The position numbers were made by a program, and so were the translations under genes. A DNA stretch of 64,000 bases from a bacterium (GTDB taxonomy: Bacteria; Sysuimicrobiota; Sysuimicrobiia; Sysuimicrobiales; Humicultoraceae): contig JBOGSD010000068.1 of NCBI GenBank assembly GCA_050695215.1, forward strand, positions 25,097-89,096, read 5' to 3'. The notes beneath the pieces are model-generated. The model ran no database searches. It saw only the letters and a list, made by a program, of their open reading frames with translations, and was not told the DNA's origin. Position 1 is the stretch's first letter. Each line of letters opens with the position of its first letter. This document shows, piece after piece, positions 11,551 through 39,705 of this stretch.

Positions 11551-13317
11551 TCACGGCACAGGCTGACCCGGCGCCAACCTGGCGGCCAGCGCCGGTGGGA
11601 CTTCCGCCTCCACCCAGATGGCGTCGGCCTTGTAGCGCTGCGTCAGCACGCGCCCCTGCGCGTACACCGCGGCCAGCCGTCCGGCCTCAGCGTAGGGGAT
11701 GGCGAAGCGGACCCGCACGAGCGGCGCCGGCAGCCGCTGGCCGATGCGCCGCAGCAGGTTCAACAGCCCGACGCCGTGCTGGGCGGCGATGAGGACCGCC
11801 TCGGGGACCTCCCGCTCGCGGGCCTGGCGCTCGGCGGCCGTCAGCCGGTCGATCTTGTTGAAGGCCAGCACCTGGGTCCGCTCCCCCGCGCCCAGCTCGG
11901 CGAGGACGCGGTCGGCGACCGCGCGTTGGTGCCGCCACTGCGGGTCGGAGGCGTCCACGACGTGCACCAGGAGGTCGGCGGCCACGACCTCTTCCAGGGT
12001 CGCCCGGAAGGCTGCCACCAGGTGGGTGGGCAGTTTGTGGATGAAGCCGACGGTGTCCACCAAGAGGACGGTCTGGCCGTTGGGCAGGGTGACCTTGCGC
12101 ACGGTGGGGTCTAGCGTGGCAAAGAGCTTGTCTTCGACAAGCACGCCGGCCTGTGTCAGCGCGTTGAGTAAGGTTGATTTGCCGGCGTTGGTGTATCCGG
12201 TGATGGCGACGATGGGATGGCGGGTGTCGCGCCGAGCGGCGCGCTGCAGCGCCCGGTGGCGGCCCACCTCGCCGAGTTCGCGGCGCAGGTCGGTGATGCG
12301 CTGGCGGATCCGGCGGCGGTCCACTTCCAGCTTCGTTTCCCCCGGGCCGCGCGTGCCGATCCCGCCGCCGAGCCGCGAGAGCCAGACGCCCCGCCCGGCC
12401 AGCCGCGGCAGGAGGTAGGTCATTTGCGCCAGTTCCACCTGCAGGCGCCCCTCGCGCGTCTGCGCGCGGCGCGCGAAGATGTCCAGAACGAGCGCGGTGC
12501 GGTCGAGCACCTTGAGCCCGAGGTCCCGCTCCAGGTTCCGCTGCTGCGCGGGGCGCAGGTCCAGGTCGAAAATGGCCAGGTCGGCGTCGCGCTCCTCGCA
12601 AAGGCGGAGCAGCTCGGTCACCTTTCCGCGGCCGATAGCGGTGGCCGGGTCGGGACGAGCGCGTGCCTGCGACAACCGGCCGACGATCTCGGCGCCGGCG
12701 GTCTCGGCCAGCCGGGCGAGTTCATCGAGCGAGGCCTCGGCGGGCAGGGTGTCTATGCCGTCGGTGCCGTCGCCGGTGGAGAGTCCCACGAGGACGGCGC
12801 GCTCGAACCGTGCCGCCGTGCGGATCAGCGCGGGCGCCCGTCGCAAGGCAGACTCTGTGGCCTTGATCCGAGGCGCCGCTTCCAGGTGCACCAACGTCTC
12901 GATGTCGTAGGGTCCTTCCGACGTGGCGCCCGGAGGGCTCCCGTTCCACCCGGGGGCCAGCGTGATCAGCCATCCCTCGGTGGGAGTCCCCTTGCGCGAT
13001 CCGATGAGGAGGGCCAGATCCAGCCGCGCCTCAATCAGGTGGCGTTCGTCTCCGGCCCCCGGCCGGCTCTCCGCCTCCGGCCGCGCCCCCACGTAGCGGA
13101 GCCCGATCAACCGCGTAGAGGAGGCCCGGGAGGTCAGTCCCTCGAGCAGTTCCTGCCAGCGCCGGCTGACCACGACCTCGCGCACCGTGCCGTGGCGGTC
13201 CAGGTAGACGCCCACCTCCCGGCGGGTGGCGTGGGACAGGTGCGCCAGCGTGGCCAGGAGGTCGGGCGAGGCGACGCGGTCCTGCGGGACATGGTGGCGC
13301 AGCAGCGCGGTGAGCAT
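11551..13317 (-). CDS. hflX: GTPase HflX
   Basis: HflX N-domain followed by a G-domain (GYTNAGKSTLLNALT, DTVGF) and a C-terminal domain. Has a long N-terminal extension. Confidence 0.85.
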   Translation of the reverse strand: MLTALLRHHVPQDRVASPDLLATLAHLSHATRREVGVYLDRHGTVREVVVSRRWQELLEGLTSRASSTRLIGLRYVGARPEAESRPGAGDERHLIEARLDLALLIGSRKGTPTEGWLITLAPGWNGSPPGATSEGPYDIETLVHLEAAPRIKATESALRRAPALIRTAARFERAVLVGLSTGDGTDGIDTLPAEASLDELARLAETAGAEIVGRLSQARARPDPATAIGRGKVTELLRLCEERDADLAIFDLDLRPAQQRNLERDLGLKVLDRTALVLDIFARRAQTREGRLQVELAQMTYLLPRLAGRGVWLSRLGGGIGTRGPGETKLEVDRRRIRQRITDLRRELGEVGRHRALQRAARRDTRHPIVAITGYTNAGKSTLLNALTQAGVLVEDKLFATLDPTVRKVTLPNGQTVLLVDTVGFIHKLPTHLVAAFRATLEEVVAADLLVHVVDASDPQWRHQRAVADRVLAELGAGERTQVLAFNKIDRLTAAERQAREREVPEAVLIAAQHGVGLLNLLRRIGQRLPAPLVRVRFAIPYAEAGRLAAVYAQGRVLTQRYKADAIWVEAEVPPALAARLAPGQPVP

Positions 13318-13346: not shown

Positions 13347-14588
13347 TCAGGCCCCAGACCTGCGGGATGACTCCTCGCCTCCGACCCTGGAGGATGACGC
13401 CTCACGTCCAACCCTGGAGGATGGCGTCTGACTTCCAAAAGCACGGGCCAACCGGTCGAGGGCCTCGTCGAGCCGGGCGTCCGGCGTGGTCAGGGAGATG
13501 CGGACATAGCGGACTCCCTGGGCGCCATAACCTGCGCCTGGGGTGATGAGGACGCCGGTGCGGTCCAGCACCTCCGCCGCAAAGTCGGCGCCGCTGCGCC
13601 CGTTGGGGGCGGCCATCCAAAGATAGATCGTGGCCTTGGGCCGGTCCACCGGCCAGCCGATCGCGGTGAGCGCCTCCGTGGCGCGGTCCCGCCGGCGGCG
13701 GTAGACGTCCACGCGCTGATGCAGCGGTTCCCGCGGCCCCAGCAGGGCGGCGACGCCCGCTTCCTGGACGGCTCGGAACACACCGGAATCGACGTTGGTC
13801 TTGATCGTCCCCAGCGCCTTGATCACCGCGGCGTTGCCGACGGCAAACCCGATGCGCCACCCGGTCATGCAGAAGGTTTTGGAGAGGGAGTGAAACTCCA
13901 CCCCCACCTCCTTGGCGCCGTGCGCCTGCAGGAAGCTGGGCGGCCGGTACCCATCGTAGGCGATCTCGGAATAGGAGTTGTCGTGCGCCACCACCAGGTC
14001 GTGCGCCTGCGCAAACTGGACCGCCTCTTCGAAGAACGGCAGCTCGATCACGCCGGCGGTGGGATTGTTGGGGTAGTTGAGAAAGAGGATCCGGGCGCGG
14101 CGCGCGCTCGCCGCAGAGATAGCGGCCAGCTCCGGGACGAACGCGCGCGCGGGGTCGAGGGGGAACGCGATCGGGTCCCCCTCCGCCAGGATCGTGGCGG
14201 AGCGGTAGACCGGATAGCCGGGGTCCGGGACGAGCGTGGCGTCGCCCGGATTCAAGAGCGCCCAGGGCAAGTGGGCCAGTCCCTCTTTTGACCCGATCAA
14301 GGCGAGGACTTCGGTCTGGGGGTCGAGGCGAACGTCGAACCGGCGGCGGTACCATTCGGCCACCGCCTCGCGAAAGTCCGCGCTGCCCCCATACGGAGGA
14401 TAGCGGTGGCTCCGCGGATCCCGCGCCGCCCGCACCAGCGCATCGATGATGTGCTCCGGCGTCGGCAGATCGGGGTCGCCGACGCCCAGGCTGATCACGT
14501 CGACGCCTTTCGCCGCCAGCGCCTCCTTCTGGCGGTCCAGGTCGGCGAACAGGTAGGCGCCGATGCGGTTCAGTCGGCCCGAGTTCAT
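13347..14588 (-). CDS. Class I/II PLP aminotransferase (LL-diaminopimelate aminotransferase DapL-like)
   Basis: Aminotransferase class I fold with SLSKTF PLP-lysine motif. Start taken at the ATG at 14588, preceded by GGTGGAG. The C-terminal tail is encoded by a 27-bp tandem duplication. Confidence 0.75.
   Translation of the reverse strand: MNSGRLNRIGAYLFADLDRQKEALAAKGVDVISLGVGDPDLPTPEHIIDALVRAARDPRSHRYPPYGGSADFREAVAEWYRRRFDVRLDPQTEVLALIGSKEGLAHLPWALLNPGDATLVPDPGYPVYRSATILAEGDPIAFPLDPARAFVPELAAISAASARRARILFLNYPNNPTAGVIELPFFEEAVQFAQAHDLVVAHDNSYSEIAYDGYRPPSFLQAHGAKEVGVEFHSLSKTFCMTGWRIGFAVGNAAVIKALGTIKTNVDSGVFRAVQEAGVAALLGPREPLHQRVDVYRRRRDRATEALTAIGWPVDRPKATIYLWMAAPNGRSGADFAAEVLDRTGVLITPGAGYGAQGVRYVRISLTTPDARLDEALDRLARAFGSQTPSSRVGREASSSRVGGEESSRRSGA
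13386..13440. repeat. 27-bp imperfect tandem duplication (2 copies) in the 3' end of the aminotransferase gene
   Basis: CCCTGGAGGATGACGCCTCACGTCCAA followed by CCCTGGAGGATGGCGTCTGACTTCCAA, read directly on the plus strand. Confidence 0.5.
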
Positions 14589-25249: not shown

Positions 25250-26682
25250 CGCAGCGCGGAGAAGGCCGCGACGACGGCCTCGACGTCGTCCGGCGAAAGC
25301 GTCCGTAGATTCAGCAGGAGAGCTTCGTCCTGAATGCGCGCGATCACCGGCGGACGAGCCTGGCGGAGCTGCGCCGCCCAGGCCTCCGCTCCGGCTCGGC
25401 GGGGACGCACCCGCACTGCCGACGACGACAGGCCGGCCTCGGGGAGCGCTCCTCCCCCCACCTGTGCCTCGGCGCCGACGACGGCCACCTCCGCGCCTTC
25501 TCCGAGTCGCTCTCTCAGGCGGTCCGCGAGCCGCTGCGCTCGCGCCTCCAATTCCTCGGGGCCGGCCGCCAGCATCTGCAGAATGGGAATCTGCGCCCAC
25601 GCCTCTCCGGGCGTCAGGTAATGGCGCAGCGTCGCCGCCAATGCGGCCAGGTCGAGCCGGTCGATGCGGAGCGCCCGCGCCAGGGGATGACCGCGGCAGC
25701 GGCTGACCGCCTCCTTCGTCCCTACCAGCAGGCCGGCCTGCGGGCCCCCCGCCAGCTTGTCTCCACTGAAGGTTACCAGCGCGGCGCCGGCGGTGACCGC
25801 GTCCTGCACCGTCGGCTCGCGCGGAAGGCCCCGCTCGGCCAGGTCCACCAGCGCGCCGCTGCCCAGGTCATACATGACGGGGATGCTGCGGCCGGCGGCC
25901 AGCGCCACCAGCTCGGGCACCGGCACCTCGTGGACGAACCCCGACATGGCGAAGTTGCTGCGGTGCACCTTCAGCACCAGCGCGGTCTGCGGCGTTAATG
26001 CCCGTTCATAGTCGGCCAGGTGGGTGCGGTTGGTGGTGCCCACCTCTACCAGCCGAGCGCCGCTTTGGGCCATCACCTCCGGCATGCGAAAGGAGCCGCC
26101 AATCTCCACGAGCTCGCCCCGTGAGACGATGACCTCGCGTCCCGCCGCGAGGGCGGCGAGACCGAGGAGGACTGCCGCCGCGTTGTTATTGACGGCCAGA
26201 GCGGCCTCTGCACCGCTGATCTCTTCCAGCAGCGTCTCGACGTGCGCCTGCCGCGATCCCCGGTCGCCGGTTTCGGGATCGATCTCCAGGAAGGTATAGC
26301 CGGTCAGCGCCGCCCGCACCGCCTCCTGGGCGGCCGCACTGAGCGGTGCTCTTCCTAGGTTGGTGTGAATGAGGATGCCGGTGGCGTTGACCGCGCGCAC
26401 CAGTGAGGGATGGCCATACCAGGCGAGGAGGCGGGCGCTGTCGGCGAGGACCTGCTCCGGAGCCCATCCGGCCGGAGCCGTCCCCTCGATTAGCCCGCTT
26501 CGGGCCTCCTTCAGCAGCCGGCTCCTCGCCGTCTCCAGCGCCTGGCGGACGAAGCGGGCGGCCAGCGGTCGTGGAATACCGTCAAGACGACCGGAGCCTT
26601 CCAGCTGCGAAAGCACGCGCTCTACCGAGGGGAGCTGACGAAGCCGCACATCACGCGGGTCAGGAGGGTCGGTCACCCCCAC
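25246..26682 (-). CDS. selA: L-seryl-tRNA(Sec) selenium transferase SelA
   Basis: SelA signature VNATGILIHTNLGRA. PLP-Lys region FSGDKLAGGPQAG. Confidence 0.88.
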   Translation of the reverse strand: MGVTDPPDPRDVRLRQLPSVERVLSQLEGSGRLDGIPRPLAARFVRQALETARSRLLKEARSGLIEGTAPAGWAPEQVLADSARLLAWYGHPSLVRAVNATGILIHTNLGRAPLSAAAQEAVRAALTGYTFLEIDPETGDRGSRQAHVETLLEEISGAEAALAVNNNAAAVLLGLAALAAGREVIVSRGELVEIGGSFRMPEVMAQSGARLVEVGTTNRTHLADYERALTPQTALVLKVHRSNFAMSGFVHEVPVPELVALAAGRSIPVMYDLGSGALVDLAERGLPREPTVQDAVTAGAALVTFSGDKLAGGPQAGLLVGTKEAVSRCRGHPLARALRIDRLDLAALAATLRHYLTPGEAWAQIPILQMLAAGPEELEARAQRLADRLRERLGEGAEVAVVGAEAQVGGGALPEAGLSSSAVRVRPRRAGAEAWAAQLRQARPPVIARIQDEALLLNLRTLSPDDVEAVVAAFSALR

Positions 26683-30160: not shown

Positions 30161-32395
30161 TCAGTGCGTCGTGGGGGGTGGCTGCCAGAGGGGCCCGGGC
30201 AGGTCGGGCGGCGGCGGCGCGGAGGCGTCCACGGGGATGACGCGGTCGGCGTAGGGTTCATACTCCGGGCGGCACGTAAACAGCAACACCTGGTGGGTCT
30301 CGCTGACGCGGCGCAGCAGGGCCATCGCCGCGGCCAGACGCTCCGGATCGAAGGAGCCAAAGGGGTCGTCCAGCAGCAGCGGCGGGCGCCGCCCCTCCGA
30401 GAGCACCTCCACCAGGGCCAGGCGGACGGCCAGGTAGACCTGGTCGGCGGTGCCCCGGCTGAGGGTCGGTTCGGCCGGCTCGACCCACTGTGCCGCCGCG
30501 TCGGCCCACACCGTGATCTGCAGCGGGTTTTCCGTGATGCTGACTCGCCCATACGCCGCCTGAGTGAGGAGGGCCAGGTACTCTCCCGCCCGCTCCTCCA
30601 CGCGCTGCCGGGCCGGGATCACGGTGAGCTCTCGGGCCAACCGCAGCCCTGCGGACGCCAGACGGACCACTCGTCCCCGACGCTCCGCCGTCTCGAGGGC
30701 CTCCTGCCGGTCGGCCAGGCGCTCCTCGGTGGCCGCCAGCGCTTCATCGTCGGGCGCGCCCTGGGCGGTCTCCCGCTCCAGATATTCTCGCCGCCCTGCG
30801 AGCGTATGCACCGTCTGGGTGAGGTCCTTCACCGTCCGCTCGAGCTGCTGCACCTCGAGGCCGGTGAGGCGTTTGGCCTCCGCGTCGCTCAGCTGAATCT
30901 CCCGTCCGGCCACGTCCGCGCGCCGCCGGTCGCGCGCCTCTCGGAGATCCGCAAGGTCCTGCCCGCCGAGATGGGCTGCCACCTGACTCCCGGTGCCGGT
31001 CCGGTCGTCTTCCAGCTGGCGCATCCGCGCGTGGCGCGCCAGCGCCTCCTCCACGGTGGCGCTCCCGGCCCCGGCGACCGTCTCTTGGAGGGCCGCCTGT
31101 GCCGCGATCAGTTCTTCCTGGGCCGCGGCGAGGTGTCGTTTGGCCTCCTCCAGCCGCAGGAGGGCCTCGGCGCGTGTCCGCGCCACGTCCTCACGGCGCC
31201 GCCGCCGCCGTTGCTCGAGGCCGAGCAGGAGGAGGCCAGCCAGGCCGGCCGCCACCGCCGCGGGCCAGAGGGGTCCGACCGACCAGACAGCCGCCGCCGC
31301 CGCGGCGACGGCGGCGAGGACGATCAGCAGCCAGCCGAGGGGTCGTCTCCGGCTCCGCGCGTCGACGGAGGCGGCGGATGCCGTCACGCTTCCGGTCAGC
31401 GTCTCGGCGGCACCGACCCTGCGTGCCAGGTCCTCGGCGGTCTTCTCCTGCTGCTGCACCCGCCCGGCCGCCGCGTGGATGCGGGCGACCGCGGTGTCGT
31501 CGGGGACTCCGCTGGCCTGGAGCGCCTCCAGGTCGCGCCCAATGCCTTCGAGGCGATCGTACCCTCGCTCGACGGCGTTCACGCGTTCCGCCAGTTGCCG
31601 GGCCTCCGCGCGGAAGTGCTCCAACTCGCGATCGATGCGGAGCAGCCGCTGGTTCTCGGTGAGCAGGGCCTCCCGGTCGGCGAGGTCGGTGGCCGCCCGG
31701 TCGGCCTCCTCTCGGAGGCGCCTGAGCTCCTCCCGCTGTCCCTCCAGCACCTCGACGCGGCGGCGGAGTCCATCCCGCTCCCGCGTCAGCGCGGCCACCT
31801 CGTCCTGCCGGCCGCGAATCACCCCGGGCGTTTTTACGGGACGACCATCCAGCCCCTTCTCCAGTTCAGCCAGTTCCTTGTCCAGCTTCTTGATCACTGC
31901 GCCCGCCTCGGCATCTCCCGGGCCGGCCTGAATGATGCGGGAGAGGCGCTGCCCGATGTCCGTGGCGCCTTTCTGCAGGACGGTCAGCTCGGTTTGCTCG
32001 ATCATGGCCGTCGACCGATACAAGGGCTCTGTGGAGAGGCCAAGGGCATGCTGCAGCCGTTCCTGGACCTTGCCGCCTTCCCACGACACGCCGTTGAGCA
32101 GATCACGGAGCTCCGTGCGGCGGTGCTCGAAATCCTTGCGCAGCTCGAAGCGCCTGCCGTCCAGCTCAAACTCTACGGAGATGGAGCCCACGCGGTCGCT
32201 GCCCCAGGGGCGCCACTCGGCGACCTTCTTGGCCGTCGTGGCCGGGTTGACGAAGAACGCGGCCAGGATGGCCTGACGCAGCGTCGACTTGCCGGCCTCA
32301 TTGGGACCGACCAGGAGGTTCAGGCCCGGATCGAAGCGGTACTCCGCATCGTCGAAGCGGCGGAAGTTGCGCAGACGGAGGGCGAGCAACCGCAT
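30161..32395 (-). CDS. sbcC: SbcC/Rad50-like DNA repair ATPase (744 aa)
   Basis: N-terminal Walker A GPNEAGKST, long coiled coil, C-terminal signature and D-loop (LLLDDPFGSFD). ATGA overlap with sbcD. Confidence 0.75.
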   Translation of the reverse strand: MRLLALRLRNFRRFDDAEYRFDPGLNLLVGPNEAGKSTLRQAILAAFFVNPATTAKKVAEWRPWGSDRVGSISVEFELDGRRFELRKDFEHRRTELRDLLNGVSWEGGKVQERLQHALGLSTEPLYRSTAMIEQTELTVLQKGATDIGQRLSRIIQAGPGDAEAGAVIKKLDKELAELEKGLDGRPVKTPGVIRGRQDEVAALTRERDGLRRRVEVLEGQREELRRLREEADRAATDLADREALLTENQRLLRIDRELEHFRAEARQLAERVNAVERGYDRLEGIGRDLEALQASGVPDDTAVARIHAAAGRVQQQEKTAEDLARRVGAAETLTGSVTASAASVDARSRRRPLGWLLIVLAAVAAAAAAVWSVGPLWPAAVAAGLAGLLLLGLEQRRRRRREDVARTRAEALLRLEEAKRHLAAAQEELIAAQAALQETVAGAGSATVEEALARHARMRQLEDDRTGTGSQVAAHLGGQDLADLREARDRRRADVAGREIQLSDAEAKRLTGLEVQQLERTVKDLTQTVHTLAGRREYLERETAQGAPDDEALAATEERLADRQEALETAERRGRVVRLASAGLRLARELTVIPARQRVEERAGEYLALLTQAAYGRVSITENPLQITVWADAAAQWVEPAEPTLSRGTADQVYLAVRLALVEVLSEGRRPPLLLDDPFGSFDPERLAAAMALLRRVSETHQVLLFTCRPEYEPYADRVIPVDASAPPPPDLPGPLWQPPPTTH

Positions 32396-33504
32396 CAGCC
32401 GGCGCCCGCCTCCGCCAGGAGCTGGCTCACCCCGGTCTGCAGCGCCTCCTCAAAGAGATCCTGCTCTTCCAGAGCCGCGGCCTGTGCCTGCTCACGCATC
32501 AGCCGGATGTAGCGTCCCACGAGCGTCCGCTCCGGGAAGGCGTTGAGCGTCTCCTCGTCCAGCCAGAGCCGCGACTGATTACGCACACGCGCGCGGAAAC
32601 ATCCTTCGGCGAGCTTCTCCTCCAGCTCCCGGGCCTCCAGGGTGTGCTCTGGCGTCACGGTTCCGCTCAAGACGACATCGAGCACCGCATCGGGGTTCGC
32701 CTCCGCGGCCAGCTGAGCTCGGACCCGGTCGGGATCGAGTCCGGAGATGTCCAGCTCCACCCGGCGGTAGCGCCGTCGTCCCACCGGGATGGGCGTGACC
32801 TCGGCTTGTCCGGGCGCGGGAATCGTGACCAGGAGCGCCTGTCCCGCTTCCTGGTCCATCGCCAGAAACTCCGGCGCTCCGGCGTACCAGGCGGGTGCGG
32901 GTGGAGGCGTGACCTGCTGGGCGGTATGCCAGTCGCCCAGGGCGAGGTAGTCGAGAGCGAGCGCGCGGATATCTGAGGGATGGATCGTGCCGGCCTCGAC
33001 CACGCCTTCCCGGTAGGCGCTGCCGTGGGCCAGGCCGATCGCAAAGCGGGCCCCCCGCTCCTTCGGCCAGGCGCGCAACGGTTGCGGCCCCTCTGGTCCC
33101 ACTGACTGGCCAACGACGGTCAGATCGAGATCGGGGTACGCTTTCACCCGAGGATCGGACCCAAAGAGCGTCACGTTGGAACAGACGTCTTCAATGCGGG
33201 CCCGCGCCCAGACGCTCCCCTCTCCCAGCCGGTCGTGGTTGCCGGCCAGCAAGGCGACGCGCACCCCTGCGTCGCGCAGGCGGAGGAATTGCTCACGGAC
33301 GAAGCCCAGCGTCCCCTCGCTCTGGCGGTGGGAATGGAAGAGATCTCCGGCGATGAGCAGCAGGTGGACCGGTTCGGCCAGCGCCACGTCGACGAGCCGG
33401 GCAAAGGTCCGCTGCAACTGCTCGCGGTGGTCCCGCCCGCGCTCTCCCAGGGCCGGAAAGGCCATCCCCAGGTGCACATCGGCCGTGTGCAAGAGCTTGA
33501 TCAT
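32395..33504 (-). CDS. sbcD: SbcD/Mre11-family nuclease
   Basis: Calcineurin-like phosphoesterase motifs (HTADVHLG, GDLFH, GNHD). Confidence 0.8.
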   Translation of the reverse strand: MIKLLHTADVHLGMAFPALGERGRDHREQLQRTFARLVDVALAEPVHLLLIAGDLFHSHRQSEGTLGFVREQFLRLRDAGVRVALLAGNHDRLGEGSVWARARIEDVCSNVTLFGSDPRVKAYPDLDLTVVGQSVGPEGPQPLRAWPKERGARFAIGLAHGSAYREGVVEAGTIHPSDIRALALDYLALGDWHTAQQVTPPPAPAWYAGAPEFLAMDQEAGQALLVTIPAPGQAEVTPIPVGRRRYRRVELDISGLDPDRVRAQLAAEANPDAVLDVVLSGTVTPEHTLEARELEEKLAEGCFRARVRNQSRLWLDEETLNAFPERTLVGRYIRLMREQAQAAALEEQDLFEEALQTGVSQLLAEAGAG

Positions 33505-33510
33505 TTCAAA

Positions 33511-33614
33511 GTGTCCGGCGGCCTCATCTTTTCGGCGTCTCCGGCGGCCTCATCTTTTCGGCGTCTCCGGCGGCCTCATCATTCCGGCGTCTCCGGCGGC
33601 CTCATCATTCCGGC
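33511..33614. repeat. Tandem direct repeat, 26 bp x 4 copies (plus a partial fifth inside the helicase 3' end)
   Basis: Unit GTCTCCGGCGGCCTCATC(TT/AT)TTCGGC / ...ATTCCGGC repeated head-to-tail. Lies 7 bp upstream of the sbcD ATG and immediately after the helicase stop. Confidence 0.8.
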
Positions 33615-36600
33615 GTCTCCGGCAGCACCGGATCGCCTGTCGCGGTGTAGGGGCAGATCGAGTTGAAGGCGCAATAGCGGCAGGCCACATAGTAGTCGGG
33701 GGTGGCGATGAACTGCTGCGCGCGGACGCCCCCTGAGGCGTGCTCGATCACCTGTGTCGCCTCGGCCAGCATCTCCTCGTCCGGCGCGGTCTCTCCGACG
33801 AGCACCTGCTGCGGCCCCAGGAAGTGCAGTTCCAGCCGTTCCGGCGGTTTGCCGTAGACCTCCCGATAGGCTAGGGCGTAGATGCCGAGCTGGCGGCTCT
33901 CCCGCGCGCGACGGTCGGCGTCCTTCTGCGTGCGCACATCGCTGGTCTTAAAGTCGATGACGACCGCGTCAGATCCGCGCAGGTCGACGCGGTCCCAACG
34001 ACCTTTCACCCGGGTCAGCCCCACCTGGAAGGAAAAGGGCGCCTCCACGAAGGTGGGGCGCCGACCCTGGGCCTCCTGAAAATCGAAGAAGGTGCGCAGG
34101 ACCGCCCGCCCCTCCTCCATGCGCTGGTCCTCGTGCTCACGGCTGATGAACCCTTCGTTGATCCAGGCCCGCTCGAAGATCGTCAGCAGGTCGGCAGCGG
34201 TGACGGGCTGGGCGCGGGCGCGCCGGCGGTTGTACTCACGCACCGCCTCGTGCACGGCGCTGCCGTAGACGACGCGATGGTCGCGCAGCAGCGGCACGCG
34301 CAGGATGTGCGTGTACTTGAACTTCAGCGGGCAGGTCGCGTAGTCGTCCACCTGGCGAAACGAGAGGCTCAGCGGTTCCTCCGGCGGGATCACCCCGGCC
34401 AGGGTCTGCTGCCCCTCCGTGGGCGGCGCGTGCCGCTGGATCGTCTCCGTGGGGGCGGCTCGGAAGGCGGCGGACTCCGGCGCGGGACGGTCGAGCGCCT
34501 CCAGCACGAAGCGGCTGACCTTGCGTGGCCGCACCCCGCCGTAGTCGCGCGCGCTGGTCAGGTACAATTCGCGCCTCGTTCGCGTCATCGCCACGTAGAA
34601 GAGGCGCCGCTCCTCCTGCAGGTGGAAATCGCCCTGCGGCAGGAGATCCTTCACCAGCGGATCGGGCAGGGCGATCGGTTCCCCGCGGTTGCGCGTGGGG
34701 AAGCGGTCGGCCACGGCCGAGACCAGGAACACGACGGGAAACTCGAGCCCCTTGGCCTTGTGCACGGTGAGAACGTTGACGGCGTCGCTGTCGAAATCGG
34801 CCTCGGCCATCGCCGGGTCGTCCCCGGCGGCGATGAGGTCGTCCAGGTGCTTGACGAATTCGGGGACGCGATCGTAGGTGGCAATCTCGCCGTACCGCGC
34901 CACGATCTCGAAGAAACGGGCGAGGTTGCGCACGGCCATCTCGTCGGTGGGGTTCTCGGAGGTCGCCAACCGTCCCACCAGCCCGGTGCGGCTGACGAGA
35001 TAGCTGTAGAGGACACGCCCGGTGGGCTGGTCTTTCATCAGGCGGCGCATCTCGTCGAGGTCGTCGAGCAGGCGATCCAGCGCCGCCCGGGTCTCCGGCC
35101 CGATCTCTTCGGCCAGATCGGAGAAGGCGGTCAGTCGTCGGAAGACGTACTCCAGGGTCCGGTTCCGCCGGTTGGCATACGCCAGCGCCTTGGCCACGTC
35201 GGTCGGGCTGATCAGGTAGATCGGCGAGATCCCCAGGTAGTAGAGGCTGAGGTTGTCCGCCGGATTGGCCAGCGCCCGCAAGAAGGCGAGCACGAGGCGG
35301 ATCTCCTCCCGGTTGTAGAGCCCGCGGTTGCCGGTGAAGCGGTGCGGCACCCCCCGCAAGTTGAGCGCCCGCAGGAAGGGGTCGGCGTCGTGGTTGCTGC
35401 GGACCAGGATGGCGAAGTCTTTGTACCGGTACGCCGCGGCGGCCACCCGCTCGGCGATGTGCGCAGCCACCCCGTCGGCTTCACTGCTGAGGGTATCGAA
35501 GTGCAGGTGCTGCACCTCCGGACCCGTCGAGCTGGACGTGAGCCGTTTGTCGATCTGGTTGCGGACCTCCAGCCGGTCGGGATCGTTGTGGCGGATCAAC
35601 CGGTAGGCGACGTCCAGCACGGGCTGGGGTGAGCGGTAGTTGCGGGTGAGGACGACCTGGGTCGCGTCGGGATAGGTCGCGGTGAACCCCAGAATGTTGC
35701 TGATCGAGGCGCCGCGGAACTTGAAAATGGCCTGATCGTCGTCGCCGACGACGGTGACGGTGCGGTGCTGCCCCGCCAGCAGCTGCACCAATTGAAACTG
35801 CGCGTAGTTGGTGTCCTGAAATTCGTCCACCAGGATATAGCGGAACCGTTCCTGGTAGGCGCGCAGCACGCCGGGGCGCTCGCGGAAGAGGCGCAGGGGC
35901 AGCGTGATCTGGTCGCCGAAATCGAGCAGCCCTTCGCGCCCAAGCATTGTCTGGTAGACGCGGTAGGCTTGCGCCAGTTCGCCCTGCTTGCGCGCCGCGT
36001 CGGCCAATTCGGCGTCGTCGGAAGCCTGGGCGGCGGCCGCGGACACCCGCTCCGCGAAGGCAGCGTACTCCTCCGGTCCGGCGTCCTCGTCCTTCGCCCG
36101 GCTGAAGAGGGCGATGAGCGCCTCCACGTACCGGGTCGGGTCGCCGAGGGGCCGGTAGTACCGCAGGGGGAGCTCGAAGAGGCGGTCGCGCAGGAAGAGC
36201 ACCTGCTCGGCGCGGGAGAGGACGCGCACGTCCGGGGGCAGCCCCAACTCCAGGGCGTGCTGGCGCAGCACCCGGTCGCCGAAGGCGTGGAACGTGCCGA
36301 TGGTGATGTCCGTGTAGCCGTAGGGGGTGAGCAGGTCGACGCGTTCTTCCATCTCCGCGGCGGCCTTGTCGGTGAACGTGAGGGCCAGGATCTCCGAGGG
36401 GCGCGCGCGGCGGGCGGCGATCAGCCAGGCGATGCGGCGGGTGATCACCGACGTCTTTCCCGTCCCGGCTCCGGCGACGATGAGCAGTGGCCCTTCCCCG
36501 AACGTCACCGCGCGGAGCTGCTCTTCGTTCAACCCCTCCAGGGCCCGATCTGCCGCCCGTTCGGTCGTGCGGTCGCTGAAGCGATCTGGCGATCCCTTCG

Positions 36601-36670
36601 CGGCGAATTCTAAGATCAACTGGCCGCCGTCGGGGCGGTCAGGATAGCGCTGCAGAGGGCGTCCTGTCAT
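33605..36670 (-). CDS. UvrD/PcrA-like ATP-dependent helicase with C-terminal RecB/Cas4-type (Cys-cluster) nuclease domain (AddA/AdnB-like)
   Basis: Walker A AGAGTGKT and UvrD motifs. C-terminus carries CRYCAFNSICPY (Fe-S Cys cluster) and PD-(D/E)xK-like residues. Confidence 0.8.
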   Translation of the reverse strand: MTGRPLQRYPDRPDGGQLILEFAAKGSPDRFSDRTTERAADRALEGLNEEQLRAVTFGEGPLLIVAGAGTGKTSVITRRIAWLIAARRARPSEILALTFTDKAAAEMEERVDLLTPYGYTDITIGTFHAFGDRVLRQHALELGLPPDVRVLSRAEQVLFLRDRLFELPLRYYRPLGDPTRYVEALIALFSRAKDEDAGPEEYAAFAERVSAAAAQASDDAELADAARKQGELAQAYRVYQTMLGREGLLDFGDQITLPLRLFRERPGVLRAYQERFRYILVDEFQDTNYAQFQLVQLLAGQHRTVTVVGDDDQAIFKFRGASISNILGFTATYPDATQVVLTRNYRSPQPVLDVAYRLIRHNDPDRLEVRNQIDKRLTSSSTGPEVQHLHFDTLSSEADGVAAHIAERVAAAAYRYKDFAILVRSNHDADPFLRALNLRGVPHRFTGNRGLYNREEIRLVLAFLRALANPADNLSLYYLGISPIYLISPTDVAKALAYANRRNRTLEYVFRRLTAFSDLAEEIGPETRAALDRLLDDLDEMRRLMKDQPTGRVLYSYLVSRTGLVGRLATSENPTDEMAVRNLARFFEIVARYGEIATYDRVPEFVKHLDDLIAAGDDPAMAEADFDSDAVNVLTVHKAKGLEFPVVFLVSAVADRFPTRNRGEPIALPDPLVKDLLPQGDFHLQEERRLFYVAMTRTRRELYLTSARDYGGVRPRKVSRFVLEALDRPAPESAAFRAAPTETIQRHAPPTEGQQTLAGVIPPEEPLSLSFRQVDDYATCPLKFKYTHILRVPLLRDHRVVYGSAVHEAVREYNRRRARAQPVTAADLLTIFERAWINEGFISREHEDQRMEEGRAVLRTFFDFQEAQGRRPTFVEAPFSFQVGLTRVKGRWDRVDLRGSDAVVIDFKTSDVRTQKDADRRARESRQLGIYALAYREVYGKPPERLELHFLGPQQVLVGETAPDEEMLAEATQVIEHASGGVRAQQFIATPDYYVACRYCAFNSICPYTATGDPVLPETPE

Positions 36671-37359
36671 GAGGGGTCCAGGACCTCGTTCCTCCCCCGC
36701 CGCCGCAGGGTTCCGCCGTTCGGGCCAGGGCCCAACTGCCGCGCGGCCTCCCTGAGGATCGGGGCGATGGTGCTGCCGGAGAATCCCCGCCGCCTGAGGA
36801 GACCGGCCAGGCGGCGCAGGCGAACATCCAGGGTGAGCGCCTGTCCGCGGCTCAGATAGCGCGCCGCCGCGGCGGCCGCCATCTGCTCCTCCTGCTCCGG
36901 TGGCAGCGCCGCGCGCAGCGTCTCCTCGATGATGTCGGAGGCGACGCCCTTGAGGCGGAGCTCGGCCCGCAGCCGGTGCGGCCCTCTGCGGCCCGCGGCG
37001 AGCCGGCCATCGATCCAGAGCCTGGCAAAACGCCGGTCGTCGATCGTCCCGGCCTGAACCAGGTCGGTCAGCACCGCCTCCACGGCGGGGAGGGCGAAGC
37101 CCCGCCTTCGGAGCCGTCCGGTCAGTTCTGCCCGGCTGCGCGGGCGGTAGCGCAGGAGCGCCAGGGCGGCCTCACGGGCACGAGTCTCCTCGTCCAGCGT
37201 GGCGAGGCGTGTGAGGACCAGCGCGTCGATCTCCGTTGCCTCGGTAAGGGCAAGAGGGAGAGCGCGTTCCGCGTCCACCAAGAACCGGCGGCTATCGGCA
37301 AGCGTGACGGCGCGCAAGTGGCCCCCCCGTCCCGCCGGCCGGATTCGTCCGATCTGCAT
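36667..37359 (-). CDS. recX: RecA regulator RecX
   Basis: Triple helical repeat RecX-like sequence immediately downstream of recA. Confidence 0.75.
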   Translation of the reverse strand: MQIGRIRPAGRGGHLRAVTLADSRRFLVDAERALPLALTEATEIDALVLTRLATLDEETRAREAALALLRYRPRSRAELTGRLRRRGFALPAVEAVLTDLVQAGTIDDRRFARLWIDGRLAAGRRGPHRLRAELRLKGVASDIIEETLRAALPPEQEEQMAAAAAARYLSRGQALTLDVRLRRLAGLLRRRGFSGSTIAPILREAARQLGPGPNGGTLRRRGRNEVLDPS

Positions 37360-37362
37360 TGG

Positions 37363-39516
37363 TCAGGCCTTGACCTTGACCGGCGCCTCCTTGACCCCTG
37401 TTGCTTCGCGCTTGCCCTCGGCGCCGTCGCGTGAGCCTGCGCCGTTGCGCCGGGGCAGTCCCAGCGTGTCCCGGGTCCGCGTCTCCAGCTCGCGGGCCAG
37501 CTCGAGATTGCTCTCCAGGAAATCGCGCGCGTTGTCCCGCCCCTGGCCCAGGCGGAGGTCGCCGTAGGAGAACCAGGTGCCGGTGCGGCTGATCAGTCCG
37601 GCGGCGTGCGCCGTGTCGAGCAGGCTGCCGGTCCGGGAAATCCCCTGTCCGTAGAAGATGTCCACCTCGGCGTCGCGGAAGGGCGGGGCGAGCTTATTCT
37701 TCACCACTTTGATCCGCGCCCGCATGCCCTTGATCTCTTCCCCGCTCTTGATGGACTCGATGCGGCGGATCTCCATGCGCACGGAGGAATAGAACTTGAG
37801 GGCGCGGCCGCCAGTGGTGGTTTCCGGCGAGTTGTGGACGACAGCACCGCCGACGAGATAGGTGTGGTTGCCCTCAACCTCCAGATCAAACCGCCGCATG
37901 GAGCGTGTCGGCGGCTTCTTGTAGATCCGGGCGATCCTCGCGGGGACGGCACGGAGATACCGTCGGGCCGAGAGGCGGGTTCCGTTCAAGTGTGCATCAC
38001 TGAGATCGGGCTGCCAGGCATATCGACCGCGCAACGTGGGGTGAAGCTTATAATCCACTGACGGATGGAGATAGGGGGCGATCAATTCATGAAACTTCGC
38101 GGTCTGCTCTGCCGTAAACCAAAACCCCCGGCCGTCATCACGCGGTCGACCCACTCCGAGCCGTTCAAACAGGGCGGCCACCCGTTCCCGGTCAGTGCCC
38201 TGAAGCGACGTGTTGTAAATCGCAGCCTTTCCGTGACCCCAGCGTGCAAAGTGCCCGGCGAAGGATCCGTCGTCGCCGTACCATACGGCCACGCCGCGGG
38301 CATCGAGTTGGTCAAGGACCGTTGCCGCGGCGGTTCGCTGGCCTTCGGCGTACAAACTGGTCCGCAGTTCAGCAAGCGTGGGGAATGCGAGTGTTTCAAA
38401 TCCCTGTCCATTGCCCCTGGGACCGAAGTCCTGCGAGAACGGTTCCAGCATCCAGTGCTTCCATCTCGCATATGCGGTTTGTGCTTCCCCATGGCCCACC
38501 CGGAAGGACGCCGCCTGGGTACTCACCTGCCGGAGCGCTCCGTCACCCAGCGTCCCGCCCAGGATGAGCTGCAATTGATCCTCGGTCAGACGGTAGTCTT
38601 CGACTGAAGCCAATACCTCGTCACCTTCGCGGAGCTCACCCGCGGGAACTTCTCCCCGGGGCGTGAATATCATGTGGTTGGGAGTAACGCCAAATCGGCG
38701 CCGGCCCGACGGACCCCCTTCGATCTCGAATTGGAGGAAATGCTCGGCGTTCCCATTGTCGAACCAATTCACGACGCGGCGCGGCTGCAGCCTCCCGGTC
38801 GCGGCATCGTAACTGAGCACCTCGACGGGTATCCGCTGGTTGACGATCTTGCCGATCTTCATTCTGCTTCCGTCAGCGAGCACGACGCGAGCATTGTAGT
38901 GGAAGCAGCCAAACATGACCCCGATCTTCTCTCGGATCTGGTTGATGAAGATCACGGTGGTGTGGGACTTGCTGATCGTCCCCACCAGTTTGCGCAGCGC
39001 CTGGGACATCAGCCGGGCGTGCAGGCCGACGTGGGCGTCGCCCATCTCCCCTTCCAGTTCAGCCCGCGGCACCAGCGCGGCGACCGAGTCGATGACGATG
39101 ACGTCCACCGCGCCGCTGCGCACGAGCATCTCCGCGATCTCGAGGGCCTGCTCGCCGCTGTCGGGCTGGGAGAGCAACAGGCCATCGATGTCTACCCCCA
39201 CGGCCCGGGCGTAGTTGGGGTCGAGGGCGTGCTCGGCGTCGATGAAGGCGGCGACGCCGCCGTCGCGCTGCGCCTCGGCGATGATGTGGTAGCCCAGCGT
39301 GGTCTTCCCGGAGGCTTCGGGCCCGTAGATCTCCACGACCCGCCCCCGGGGGACGCCGCCCACCCCCAGGGCCGCGTCCAGGGCCACCGAGCCTGTCGAA
39401 ATCACTTCCACCTGTAATTTGGCAGAGGCTTCGCCCAGCCTCATGATGGAGCCCTTGCCGAACTGCTTCTCGATCTGGGTCAAAGCGAGCTCCAACGCTC
39501 GCTGGCGCTCATTCAT
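37363..39516 (-). CDS. recA: Recombinase RecA precursor containing an in-frame intein (717 aa; exteins 203+155 aa)
   Basis: Exteins align with RecA: Walker [10 protein letters not shown], ...[10 protein letters not shown] | [14 protein letters not shown].... A 359-aa insertion begins with Cys and ends with HN followed by Ser. Confidence 0.92.
37831..38907 (-). mobile_element. RecA intein (RecA-b insertion site) with LAGLIDADG-type homing endonuclease domain
   Basis: N-terminal splice junction G|[15 protein letters not shown]-terminal block [14 protein letters not shown]|S. Two LAGLIDADG-like motifs ([23 protein letters not shown]). Confidence 0.85.
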
Positions 39517-39586
39517 GCCGCGATTCCTCCCTCAGTCACGCCGCCCCGCCCGGCCGCATCGTCCATTTGAGATGCCGCCACAGTAC

Positions 39587-39600
39587 CAAACAAATGTTCG
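39587..39600 (-). promoter_or_regulatory. Candidate LexA (SOS) box CGAACATTTGTTTG upstream of recA
   Basis: Same CGAAC-N4-GTTTG form and the same orientation relative to the gene as the lexA box. Lies about 70 nt upstream of the recA ATG. Confidence 0.5.
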
Positions 39601-39705
39601 CATGTCAACTCTGCAAAACCCTCTGCTCCGGCCGATATTGAGGAGGGGCGTCCGGCAGCACATCGCATCAAATCCTGGGGTGATCGGCCGATCCCCGCAC
39701 CAGAT

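What the first reader, a model, noticed from the sequence alone, without database searches (positions are those of the whole stretch)
33505..33640. Four 26-bp tandem repeats that reiterate the last codons of the helicase-nuclease gene, directly upstream of the sbcD start
The repeat unit reads on the minus strand ...ATGAGGCCGCCGGAGACGCCGGAATG/AAAAG.... The same sequence encodes the helicase C-terminus ...PETPE-stop. The helicase stop and the sbcD ATG are separated only by these copies. Such in-phase tandem duplications are slippage-prone. A change in copy number could alter the helicase C-terminus or the spacing and translation initiation of sbcD, which would be a possible contingency or phase-variation locus.
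Basis: seen in the sequence. Interest (0 to 1): 0.55.

Follow-up and report, generated by a model that had tools for sequence, protein, structure and literature searches.

The report
Repeated stop-start junction before sbcD
The overlapping stop/start junction between a DNA-repair helicase-nuclease gene and sbcD has been copied in tandem four times, giving a strain-variable chain of tiny reading frames that probably passes ribosomes on to sbcD and is not an on/off switch.

Summary
The repeat is real. On the minus strand, a founding partial copy (33630-33605) forms the helicase-nuclease 3' end. Four 26-nt units (33604-33501) follow and fill the whole 100-nt gap to the sbcD ATG (33504).

The array therefore reads as four mini-ORFs of 8-10 codons. 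They are linked by -4 overlaps from the helicase stop to the sbcD start.

Armatimonadota relatives show the history:
- 0 extra units (GTGA overlap, likely ancestral) in four contigs of two lineages.
- 1 unit in three lineages; in L008 it is clearly a copy of the sbcD 5' end.
- 2, 3 and 4 units among genomes 95-99% identical in sbcD DNA.

So copy number does vary between close strains. But no observed allele changes the sbcD reading frame or moves the helicase stop, and one 3-unit allele is identical in four samples. This is a variable-number tandem repeat (VNTR), not an on/off contingency switch.

Repeat-bearing genomes have lost the Shine-Dalgarno (SD) sequence directly upstream of sbcD. That fits dependence on termination-reinitiation through the relay. 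A simulation shows the relay is mutationally robust, so its persistence alone does not prove selection.

The closest known analogue is the mycobacterial MIRU-VNTR at senX3-regX3. This is a new variant of a known kind, of moderate interest.

The parts
33605..36670 (-). UvrD-type helicase / PD-(D/E)XK nuclease fusion gene (1021 aa). Its last 19-21 nt (within 33630-33605) are the founding partial copy of the repeat (...CCG GAG ACG CCG GAA TGA = PETPE*). They contain the GGAG that serves as the Shine-Dalgarno sequence for the first downstream start.
33501..33604 (-). Four complete 26-nt tandem units: u1 33604-33579, u2 33578-33553, u3 33552-33527, u4 33526-33501. u2 and u3 are identical. u4 has diverged, lacks GGAG, and holds the sbcD start inside TTGAAATGA.
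33579..33608 (-). Mini-ORF 1 (MMRPPETPE*). Its ATG overlaps the helicase TGA (ATGA), with GGAG 8 nt upstream.
33550..33582 (-). Mini-ORF 2 (MMRPPETPKR*). Its ATG overlaps the stop of mini-ORF 1 (ATGA).
33524..33553 (-). Mini-ORF 3 (MRPPETPKR*). Its ATG overlaps the stop of mini-ORF 2 (ATGA).
33501..33527 (-). Mini-ORF 4 (MRPPDTLK*). Its ATG overlaps the stop of mini-ORF 3, and its own TGA overlaps the sbcD ATG (ATGA).
32395..33504 (-). sbcD (369 aa, metallophosphoesterase). The start at 33504 is fixed by the conserved N-terminus M-I-K/R-L-L-H-T-A-D-V-H-L-G. Its own upstream 20 nt pair only weakly with the anti-SD (-3.2 kcal/mol).
30161..32395 (-). sbcC-like ATPase (744 aa). Its start overlaps the sbcD stop by 1 nt (TGATG).
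36667..39516 (-). Upstream part of the same tightly chained operon: recA (with intein) at 37363-39516 and recX at 36667-37359. recX and the helicase gene overlap by ATGA.

Best explanation
The array is a lineage-specific, copy-number-polymorphic tandem duplication of the overlapping stop/start junction between the helicase-nuclease gene and sbcD.

Shown:
- In repeat-less relatives the two genes overlap by GTGA, and the SD for sbcD (GGAG/GGAGG) lies inside the last helicase codons.
- A first 26-nt duplication copied the junction plus the first codons of sbcD. That unit survives as u4.

Inferred:
- In the window's lineage a second round of slippage occurred between two GCCGGA microhomologies 26 nt apart. 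It added u1-u3, each of which is 'helicase tail + ATGA + start of the old unit'.

Because the period is 3n-1 and each unit contains ATGA, the array automatically reads as a chain of mini-cistrons of 8-10 codons. Each has its own GGAG-N8-11-ATG and each ends on the next start.

Inferred mechanism: ribosomes finishing the helicase gene, or loading de novo at any unit's SD, are handed on by serial termination-reinitiation to the SD-less sbcD start. The coupling that a 100-nt untranslated gap would abolish is thereby kept. Copy-number change is tolerated and may grade sbcD output, but it does not switch it.
For: Structure:
- Five consecutive ATGA junctions and four mini-ORFs run from the helicase stop to the sbcD ATG.

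History:
- 0 extra units with a GTGA overlap in L002/L011 and L004/L024.
- 1 unit in L008, L009 and L010. In L008 the unit TCAGGCTCCCGCACAC matches its own sbcD 5' end TCAGGCTCCTGCACAC at 15 of 16 positions.
- 2 units in L001 and L019, 3 in L015-18, 4 in the window and L007.

All eight distinct repeat-bearing alleles keep an unbroken stop-to-start route.

SD evidence:
- sbcD's own upstream region pairs weakly with the anti-SD in every repeat-bearing genome (-1.7 to -4.8 kcal/mol). In repeat-less relatives the value is -5.8 to -15.4.
- Each mini-ORF in the window has GGAG at -6.6 kcal/mol.

Operon context:
- The rest of the operon is also chained by overlaps: recX/helicase ATGA and sbcD/sbcC TGATG.
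- There is no promoter, terminator, stable RNA fold (z = +0.86) or Rfam match in the array.

Literature:
- Termination-reinitiation coupling is almost abolished by intergenic distances of about 20 nt, and the last 15 nt of an upstream ORF suffice for it (PMC10666635).
- Short ORFs can deliver ribosomes to a coupled gene, as proposed for MIRUs (PMC12548453).

In L001 the non-proximal unit has diverged at 8 of 15 positions in its 5' part but at 0 of 11 in CCTTGAAATGA (p = 0.007).
Against: - No expression data exist. Reinitiation at these junctions is inferred, not shown.
- The relay is intrinsically robust. Only about 3% of single substitutions break it, and about half of arrays remain intact at 20-30% random divergence. 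Its presence in 8 of 8 alleles is therefore weak evidence for selection.
- Between the two closest genomes (window and L007), 2 of the 4 substitutions hit the T of a junction TGA, and one junction is lost. The route survives only because the ORF then runs in frame into sbcD. Individual junctions are thus not strongly protected.
- The mini-ORF peptides are not conserved (MIRLPHTLK, MMRPYT, MMMLPGPLK, ...).
- sbcD could instead be initiated de novo at its A/U-rich, SD-less start.
- All sequences come from metagenome assemblies.
Confidence: 0.55

Rival explanations
1. Neutral junk VNTR. The duplications are mutational accidents of replication slippage with no role. sbcD is translated by independent, SD-poor initiation at CUUUGAAAUG, and the mini-ORFs are irrelevant by-products of copying an ATGA junction with a period of 3n-1.
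For: - The relay arises automatically from the geometry and is mutationally robust.
- The array evolves about 10 times faster than the flanks and about 5 times faster than third codon positions.
- One junction is destroyed in L007.
- Peptide sequences are not conserved.
- Other gene-junction tandem duplications exist: window 13365-13438 and L025.
Against: - After the first duplication sbcD lost any SD in all seven repeat-bearing lineages. The upstream mini-ORF keeps the ancestral SD and overlap.
- The 3' part of a non-proximal unit is conserved in L001.
- Unit lengths are 26, 26, 26 and 23 (all 3n-1), with a single 25-nt exception that is rescued by the TGAAATGA three-frame stop/start arrangement.
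- The operon is otherwise strictly overlap-coupled.
Confidence: 0.3
2. One reading: a contingency (phase-variation) locus in which slippage of the 26-nt units switches the helicase C-terminus or sbcD translation between states.
For: - Copy number differs (2, 3, 4) among genomes with 95-99% identical sbcD DNA.
- u2 and u3 are identical, giving 52 nt of perfect repeat.
- The array is a local hot spot of change.
Against: - Every unit carries its own stop and start, so no copy number frameshifts either gene. The helicase stop position is invariant.
- All alleles keep an open route to sbcD, and no OFF allele was found.
- The 3-unit allele is identical in four samples, and the 4-unit count is shared by two genomes that differ by point mutations.
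- From my own knowledge, classical contingency loci use units of 1-8 nt in long tracts and reversible frameshifts or promoter spacing. Neither applies here.
Confidence: 0.07
3. The repeats are binding sites (iteron-like) for a regulatory protein or sRNA, or they hold an internal promoter for sbcDC.
For: They are directly repeated 26-bp units in front of a gene. There is a TTGAAA hexamer in u4.
Against: - No promoter-like site was found in the array. There is no inverted symmetry, no stable fold and no Rfam hit.
- Unit interiors diverge freely between relatives, and only the ATGA-proximal end is kept.
- Close relatives do without any unit.
Confidence: 0.03
4. Assembly artefact: a mis-assembled repeat in a metagenome-assembled genome.
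For: - All data are short-read metagenome assemblies.
- A k=31 Logan contig with the identical helicase protein breaks inside u1.
- Exact counts of identical units (u2 = u3) can be mis-estimated.
Against: - Independent assemblies from NCBI, JGI and Logan recover arrays. The 4-unit array appears twice with different point mutations, and the 3-unit array appears in four samples.
- The whole array (about 130 nt) is shorter than a typical read.
Confidence: 0.03

Closest known systems
MIRU-VNTR (mycobacterial interspersed repetitive units), e.g. the 77-bp repeats between senX3 and regX3
   Same: - Tandem repeats sit inside an operon between two co-directional genes.
- An ORF within the unit is coupled to the downstream gene with a -4 nt overlap, which is thought to minimise the effect on expression (review PMC12548453 citing Supply et al. 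1997).
- Copy number is polymorphic between closely related strains: 2 versus 3 repeats among BCG strains (PMC9392950).
   Different: - MIRUs are a dispersed, apparently mobile family at many loci. From my own knowledge their units are roughly 46-101 bp.
- Here the unit is 26 nt and occurs only at this junction in the window and in all fetched loci.
- It is visibly derived from the local junction itself, that is, the helicase 3' end plus the sbcD 5' end.
- The phylum is also different (Armatimonadota MAGs).
Translational coupling by termination-reinitiation at 4-nt (ATGA/GTGA) or 1-nt overlaps
   Same: Each of the five junctions is a canonical -4 overlap. The ancestral helicase/sbcD junction is a GTGA overlap. 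Experiments show such overlaps couple translation strictly, and that about 20 nt of spacer abolishes coupling (PMC6728339, PMC10666635).
   Different: Known cases join two real genes by one junction. Here up to five junctions are chained through four non-conserved mini-cistrons of 8-10 codons made by tandem duplication.
Bicistronic design (BCD) elements and natural leader mini-cistrons or minigenes
   Same: A short, efficiently initiated leader ORF with its own SD ends at or over the start codon of the gene of interest and delivers ribosomes to it (bioRxiv 10.1101/2023.02.09.527918; minigene in axe-txe, PMC8708949).
   Different: BCDs are single engineered cassettes with a second SD embedded in the leader. 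Here the cassettes are natural and iterated 1-4 times, and the last one lacks an embedded SD for sbcD.
Classical contingency loci (simple-sequence-repeat phase variation)
   Same: A repeat tract near a translation start whose copy number changes between strains.
   Different: The unit is 26 nt with only 4-5 copies. Copy-number change does not frameshift an ORF or alter promoter spacing, and no OFF state was observed.

Membership tests
MIRU-type intercistronic VNTR | Tandem repeat located between co-directional genes of one operon | tested here: met
   The array fills the 100-nt gap between the helicase-nuclease gene and sbcD. There is no promoter or terminator in it.
MIRU-type intercistronic VNTR | The unit contains a short ORF whose stop overlaps the start of the downstream gene (-4) | tested here: met
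   Four mini-ORFs, all junctions ATGA.
MIRU-type intercistronic VNTR | Copy number polymorphic among closely related strains | tested here: met
   4, 4, 2 and 3 units at 99.2, 100, 99.0 and 95.1% sbcD nucleotide identity.
MIRU-type intercistronic VNTR | Dispersed family: related units at many loci of the genome (mobile element-like) | tested here: not met
   There is no other copy in the 64-kb window at up to 3 mismatches. The unit core is found only at this junction in the 27 fetched loci. The unit is derived from the flanking genes themselves. The whole genome was not available.
Termination-reinitiation coupled gene pair | Stop and start codons overlap by 4 or 1 nt, or are within a few nt | tested here: met
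   All five junctions are at -4 in the window. In relatives they are at -4, +1 or +2.
Termination-reinitiation coupled gene pair | Downstream translation depends on translation of the upstream ORF | not testable with these tools
   This needs reporter fusions or ribosome profiling. The only indirect support is the weak SD at sbcD.
Contingency / phase-variation locus | A change in repeat number switches a gene ON/OFF, by frameshift or by promoter/RBS spacing | tested here: not met
   Both long ORFs are intact and the route is open in alleles with 0, 1, 2, 3 and 4 units. The proximal spacing is invariant.
Contingency / phase-variation locus | High-frequency reversible variation within a population | not testable with these tools
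   No reads were available. Consensus arrays are identical in four samples for the 3-unit allele.

The most novel reading that the evidence does not exclude
The array is a copy-number 'rheostat' for SbcD. Each extra unit adds one SD-ATG loading pad and one reinitiation hop. In the window's subclade each extra unit also adds a PPE/PPR diprolyl pause motif. Strain-to-strain slippage would then retune the SbcD : helicase-nuclease ratio. Because the operon (recA, recX, helicase-nuclease, sbcCD) encodes proteins that act on slipped or repeated DNA, repeat stability and repeat-controlled expression could feed back on each other. The 0-1-2-3-4 series would also be a captured example of how MIRU-like coupled intercistronic repeats are born from an ordinary gene overlap.
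Probability: 0.1. Interest if true: 0.6.

Novelty: new variant of a known kind. Interest (0 to 1): 0.4.

Why it matters
If the relay works as inferred, an overlapping stop/start junction can be duplicated repeatedly without uncoupling the two genes, because each copy rebuilds a complete stop + SD + start cassette. That would be a natural, iterated counterpart of the engineered bicistronic-design element. It would also give a plausible origin for MIRU-like intercistronic repeats, with the intermediate states (0, 1, 2, 3 and 4 units) preserved in related uncultured Armatimonadota. In practice it is a candidate strain-typing marker for this lineage. It also warns annotators that a 100-nt 'intergenic' gap may in fact be fully translated. 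It does not appear to be a phase-variation switch of DNA-repair functions.

Tried and rejected
- Dispersed repeat family: rejected. The unit occurs only at this junction.
- Structured RNA, riboswitch or attenuator: rejected. Fold z = +0.86, no Rfam hit at E <= 1, no terminator.
- Internal promoter: none found.
- Exact DNA anchor scan of metagenome contigs (TGCCCCTACACCGCGACAGGCGATCC): no hits. The follow-up protein scan gave only relatives at 66-79% identity, none with the 26-nt units.
- Exact look-ups of the window's SbcD and of P0121: not on record. The window's SbcD equals P0121, which is NCBI MGH2453371.1.
- 'Relay intact in all alleles' as proof of selection: tested by simulation and downgraded, because the architecture is robust to random substitution.
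- The other tandem repeats in the window that contain GGATGA were checked for the same phenomenon (13365-13438 and 25675-25710). The first is an in-frame 27-nt repeat in a protein C-terminal tail next to a gene junction. The second is a weak intragenic match. Neither is a mini-ORF relay.
- Diprolyl (PPE) stalling as a conserved feature: rejected as general. The L015, L008 and L010 units encode LP, not PP.
- Logan contig L027, which has the identical helicase protein, ends inside u1 and gives no copy number.
Full report
**1. Observation**

Tandem Repeats Finder reports window 33500-33623, period 26, 4.8 copies, 92% matches, score 192. This is the strongest tandem array in the window. The repeat finder shows four copies at a spacing of exactly 26 nt. 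The unit occurs nowhere else in the 64-kb window at up to 3 mismatches, with 0 matches expected by chance.

Read on the minus strand:
- The helicase-nuclease gene (33605-36670, 1021 aa; UvrD-helicase + UvrD_C + PDDEXK_1) ends ...CCG GAG ACG CCG GAA TGA (PETPE*).
- Then follow u1 TGAGGCCGCCGGAGACGCCGGAATGA (33604-33579), u2 and u3 TGAGGCCGCCGGAGACGCCGAAAAGA (33578-33553 and 33552-33527), and u4 TGAGGCCGCCGGACACTTTGAAATGA (33526-33501).
- The ATG inside u4 (33504) starts sbcD (369 aa, Metallophos). An SbcC-like ATPase gene follows.
- The 100 nt between the helicase stop and the sbcD ATG consist only of repeat.
- One correction: 26 is not a multiple of three, so the copies are not 'in phase'.

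**2.

Every unit boundary contains ATGA, which is a start codon overlapping a stop codon. Following the frames:
- The helicase TGA (33607-33605) overlaps an ATG at 33608.
- Mini-ORF 1 is MMRPPETPE*. Its TGA overlaps the ATG at 33582.
- Mini-ORF 2 is MMRPPETPKR*. Its TGA overlaps the ATG at 33553.
- Mini-ORF 3 is MRPPETPKR*. Its TGA overlaps the ATG at 33527.
- Mini-ORF 4 is MRPPDTLK*. Its TGA overlaps the sbcD ATG at 33504.

This gives five consecutive -4 overlaps. The arrangement follows from geometry. A unit that contains ATGA and has a period of 3n-1 (26 + 1 = 27) puts each ATG in frame with the next unit's TGA.

Each mini-ORF start has GGAG 8-11 nt upstream (predicted anti-SD pairing -6.6 kcal/mol). 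The sbcD start has only GGAC and pairs at -3.2 (a generic anti-SD sequence was assumed).

The sbcD-proximal motif T-TGA-A-ATG-A also deals with all three reading frames. One frame stops 1 nt before the ATG, one stops on the ATGA overlap, and the third runs in frame into sbcD. This can be read directly from the sequence.

**3. Surroundings**

The array lies inside a tightly chained minus-strand operon: recA (with an intein), recX, helicase-nuclease, sbcD and sbcC. The recA/recX gap is 3 nt, recX/helicase overlap by ATGA, and sbcD/sbcC overlap by TGATG.

There is no promoter-like or terminator-like site within the array. The RNA is no more structured than shuffles (z = +0.86). There is no Rfam match at E <= 1.

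**4. Relatives and history**

Orthologous loci come from Armatimonadota metagenome-assembled genomes and metagenomes.

- No extra unit, helicase stop overlapping the sbcD start by GTGA: L002 and L011 (77-78% identity), L004 and L024 (about 72%). The SD (GGAG/GGAGG) lies in the last helicase codons.
- Short unrelated spacers: L003 and L021-23 (11-14 nt with GGAGG or GGGGG), L005 and L025 (41-79 nt).
- One extra unit: L008 (81%), L010 (78%) and L009 (77%; 23 nt). In L008 the unit is plainly a copy of the sbcD 5' end: ...GGAATGA|TCAGGCTCCCGCACACCTTGAAATGA|TCAGGCTCCTGCACACGG..., with mini-ORF MIRLPHTLK* against SbcD MIRLLHTAD.
- Two units: L001 (77%; 26 + 25 nt, strongly diverged) and L019 (99.0%).
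- Three units: L015-L018 (95.1%). These are three JGI samples and one Logan run, and all four are identical.
- Four units: the window and L007 (99.2%; GCA_975103605.1).

The most economical history has two steps.
- First, a 26-nt duplication of the ATGA junction plus the first sbcD codons. This unit is orthologous to u4. L008's unit and L019's u2 share 23 of 26 positions.
- Second, in the window's lineage, slippage between two GCCGGA microhomologies 26 nt apart (CT**GCCGGA**GACGCCGGAATGATGAGGCC**GCCGGA**CAC). This added units made of the helicase tail, ATGA and the start of the old unit.

The first step is shown by the alignments. The microhomology mechanism is inferred.

**5. Is it hypervariable?**

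It is, relative to its flanks. Window and L007 differ at 19 of 5191 flanking positions (0.37%; all 7 helicase differences are at third codon positions). They differ at 4 of 104 array positions (3.8%). Fisher p = 9e-4 against the flanks and 0.019 against third codon positions.

Copy number differs (2, 3, 4) at 95-99% sbcD identity. But the 3-unit allele is identical in four samples, and the 4-unit count is shared by two genomes that have since accumulated point differences. Change is therefore not rapid enough to scramble consensus sequences.

A k=31 Logan contig that encodes the identical helicase protein breaks inside u1. This is a reminder that short-read counts of identical units deserve checking against long reads.

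**6. Does copy number switch anything?**

No allele does.
- The helicase stop is at the same position in alleles with 0-4 units. The worst case of unequal recombination would change ...PETPE to ...PETPKR.
- The sbcD frame is never touched.
- A simple hop-following algorithm was applied: the stop is followed by a start within -4 to +6 nt, or the ORF runs in frame into sbcD. It finds an unbroken route from the helicase stop to sbcD in all eight distinct repeat-bearing alleles.
- In L007 a T-to-A change destroys the u2/u3 junction. Because three units are 78 nt, the ORF that starts at the u1/u2 junction then runs 26 codons in frame into sbcD.
- In L001 and L009 the last mini-ORF stops 1-2 nt before the sbcD ATG.

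**7. How strong is the case for function?**

I tested whether 'route intact in 8 of 8' is informative, and it is only weakly so. About 3% of single substitutions in the spacer break the route. With 20-30% random divergence, 48-66% of the multi-unit arrays still pass. Also, two of the four window/L007 substitutions hit the T of a junction TGA.

The positive evidence is the following.
- (a) After the first duplication, sbcD's own upstream region pairs weakly with the anti-SD in every repeat-bearing genome (-1.7 to -4.8 kcal/mol). In repeat-less relatives the values are -5.8 to -15.4. The ancestral SD and overlap now serve the first mini-ORF.
- (b) In experiments, termination-reinitiation coupling is nearly abolished by about 20 nt of spacer, and 15 nt of upstream ORF suffice for it (PMC10666635; PMC6728339). 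A 100-nt gap could therefore stay coupled only through such a chain.
- (c) In L001 the non-proximal unit has diverged at 8 of 15 positions in its 5' part but at 0 of 11 in CCTTGAAATGA (p = 0.007).
- (d) Unit lengths are 26, 26, 26 and 23, all of the form 3n-1. The one 25-nt exception is rescued by the three-frame motif.
- (e) The rest of the operon is overlap-coupled.

I put the relay mechanism at about 0.55. The purely neutral reading, in which sbcD initiates independently, gets about 0.3. The structural and evolutionary description is much more secure, above 0.9.

**8. Comparison with what is known**

The closest described system is the MIRU-VNTR of mycobacteria. The review PMC12548453 (citing Supply et al. 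[quoted passage not shown] The senX3-regX3 77-bp repeat varies between 2 and 3 copies among BCG strains (PMC9392950).

The present array shares the intercistronic position, the -4 coupled mini-ORFs and the copy-number polymorphism. It fails the dispersal criterion, since it is found only at this junction. It is also shorter, at 26 nt, and it is visibly derived from the flanking genes themselves. It works like a MIRU array but is not a member of that family.

It also resembles engineered bicistronic-design elements and natural minigenes, but iterated. It lacks the defining property of contingency loci, which is an ON/OFF effect of copy number.

**9. Verdict**

Best explanation: a locally born, polymorphic intercistronic VNTR made of duplicated stop/start junctions. 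It is probably translated as a mini-cistron relay that preserves helicase-to-sbcD translational coupling.

Novelty: a new variant of a known kind. Interest: moderate (0.4). The series with 0-4 units is a neat natural illustration of how coupled intercistronic repeats can arise, but function is unproven and a neutral origin is plausible.

Noticed in passing
window 37363-39516 (minus): The recA gene encodes a 717-aa product. A Hint module and a LAGLIDADG_2 homing-endonuclease domain are inserted between the RecA core (residues 6-204) and RecA_C (630-685). This is an intein-containing RecA in an Armatimonadota-like MAG.
   Followed up: no
window ~39540-39620 (minus strand, upstream of recA): A promoter-like TTGACA-N17-TACTGT overlaps CGAACATTTGTTTG, which resembles a Cheo-type LexA box (GAAC-N4-GTTC). 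This suggests the whole recA-recX-helicase-sbcDC operon is SOS-regulated (sequence). Not tested.
   Followed up: no
L012-L014, positions 999-2995: In the relative at 79% identity, an N6_N4 DNA methyltransferase gene and a 303-aa ORF (possibly a restriction-modification module) are inserted exactly between the helicase-nuclease gene and sbcD. The same junction is therefore also an insertion site.
   Followed up: partly
L025 1449-1496: There is an independent tandem repeat at the sbcD start in a distant relative (66% identity): CATGGTGGACCG x 4.0, in frame, each copy with its own ATG (MVDR MVDR MVDR TVDR PLTLLH...). The sbcD start region has thus been tandemly duplicated at least twice independently in this group.
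   Followed up: partly
window 13365-13438 (minus-strand ORF ending at 13347; next gene starts at 13317): A 27-nt x 2.7 in-frame tandem repeat forms a low-complexity C-terminal tail (...TPSSRVGRE ASSSRVGGE ESS...) of a 444-aa ORF, 30 nt before the next gene. This is a second tandem duplication at a gene junction in the same window.
   Followed up: partly
window 33527-33608; L007; L019: The mini-ORFs of the window subclade encode RPPE or RPPR. PPE is among the EF-P-dependent pause motifs in E. coli (PMC4140641). The motif is absent from the units of L015, L008 and L010 (LP instead), so it is not a conserved feature.
   Followed up: partly
window 32395-33504: The window's SbcD is 100% identical to P0121, which is NCBI MGH2453371.1 ('MAG: metallophosphoesterase family protein [bacterium]', contig of 93,484 nt). 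That MAG is probably the source of the window.
   Followed up: yes
L027 4560-4577: A Logan (k=31) contig encoding the identical helicase protein ends 11 nt after the helicase stop, inside unit u1. The array breaks short-k assemblies, so copy numbers taken from such contigs need care.
   Followed up: yes
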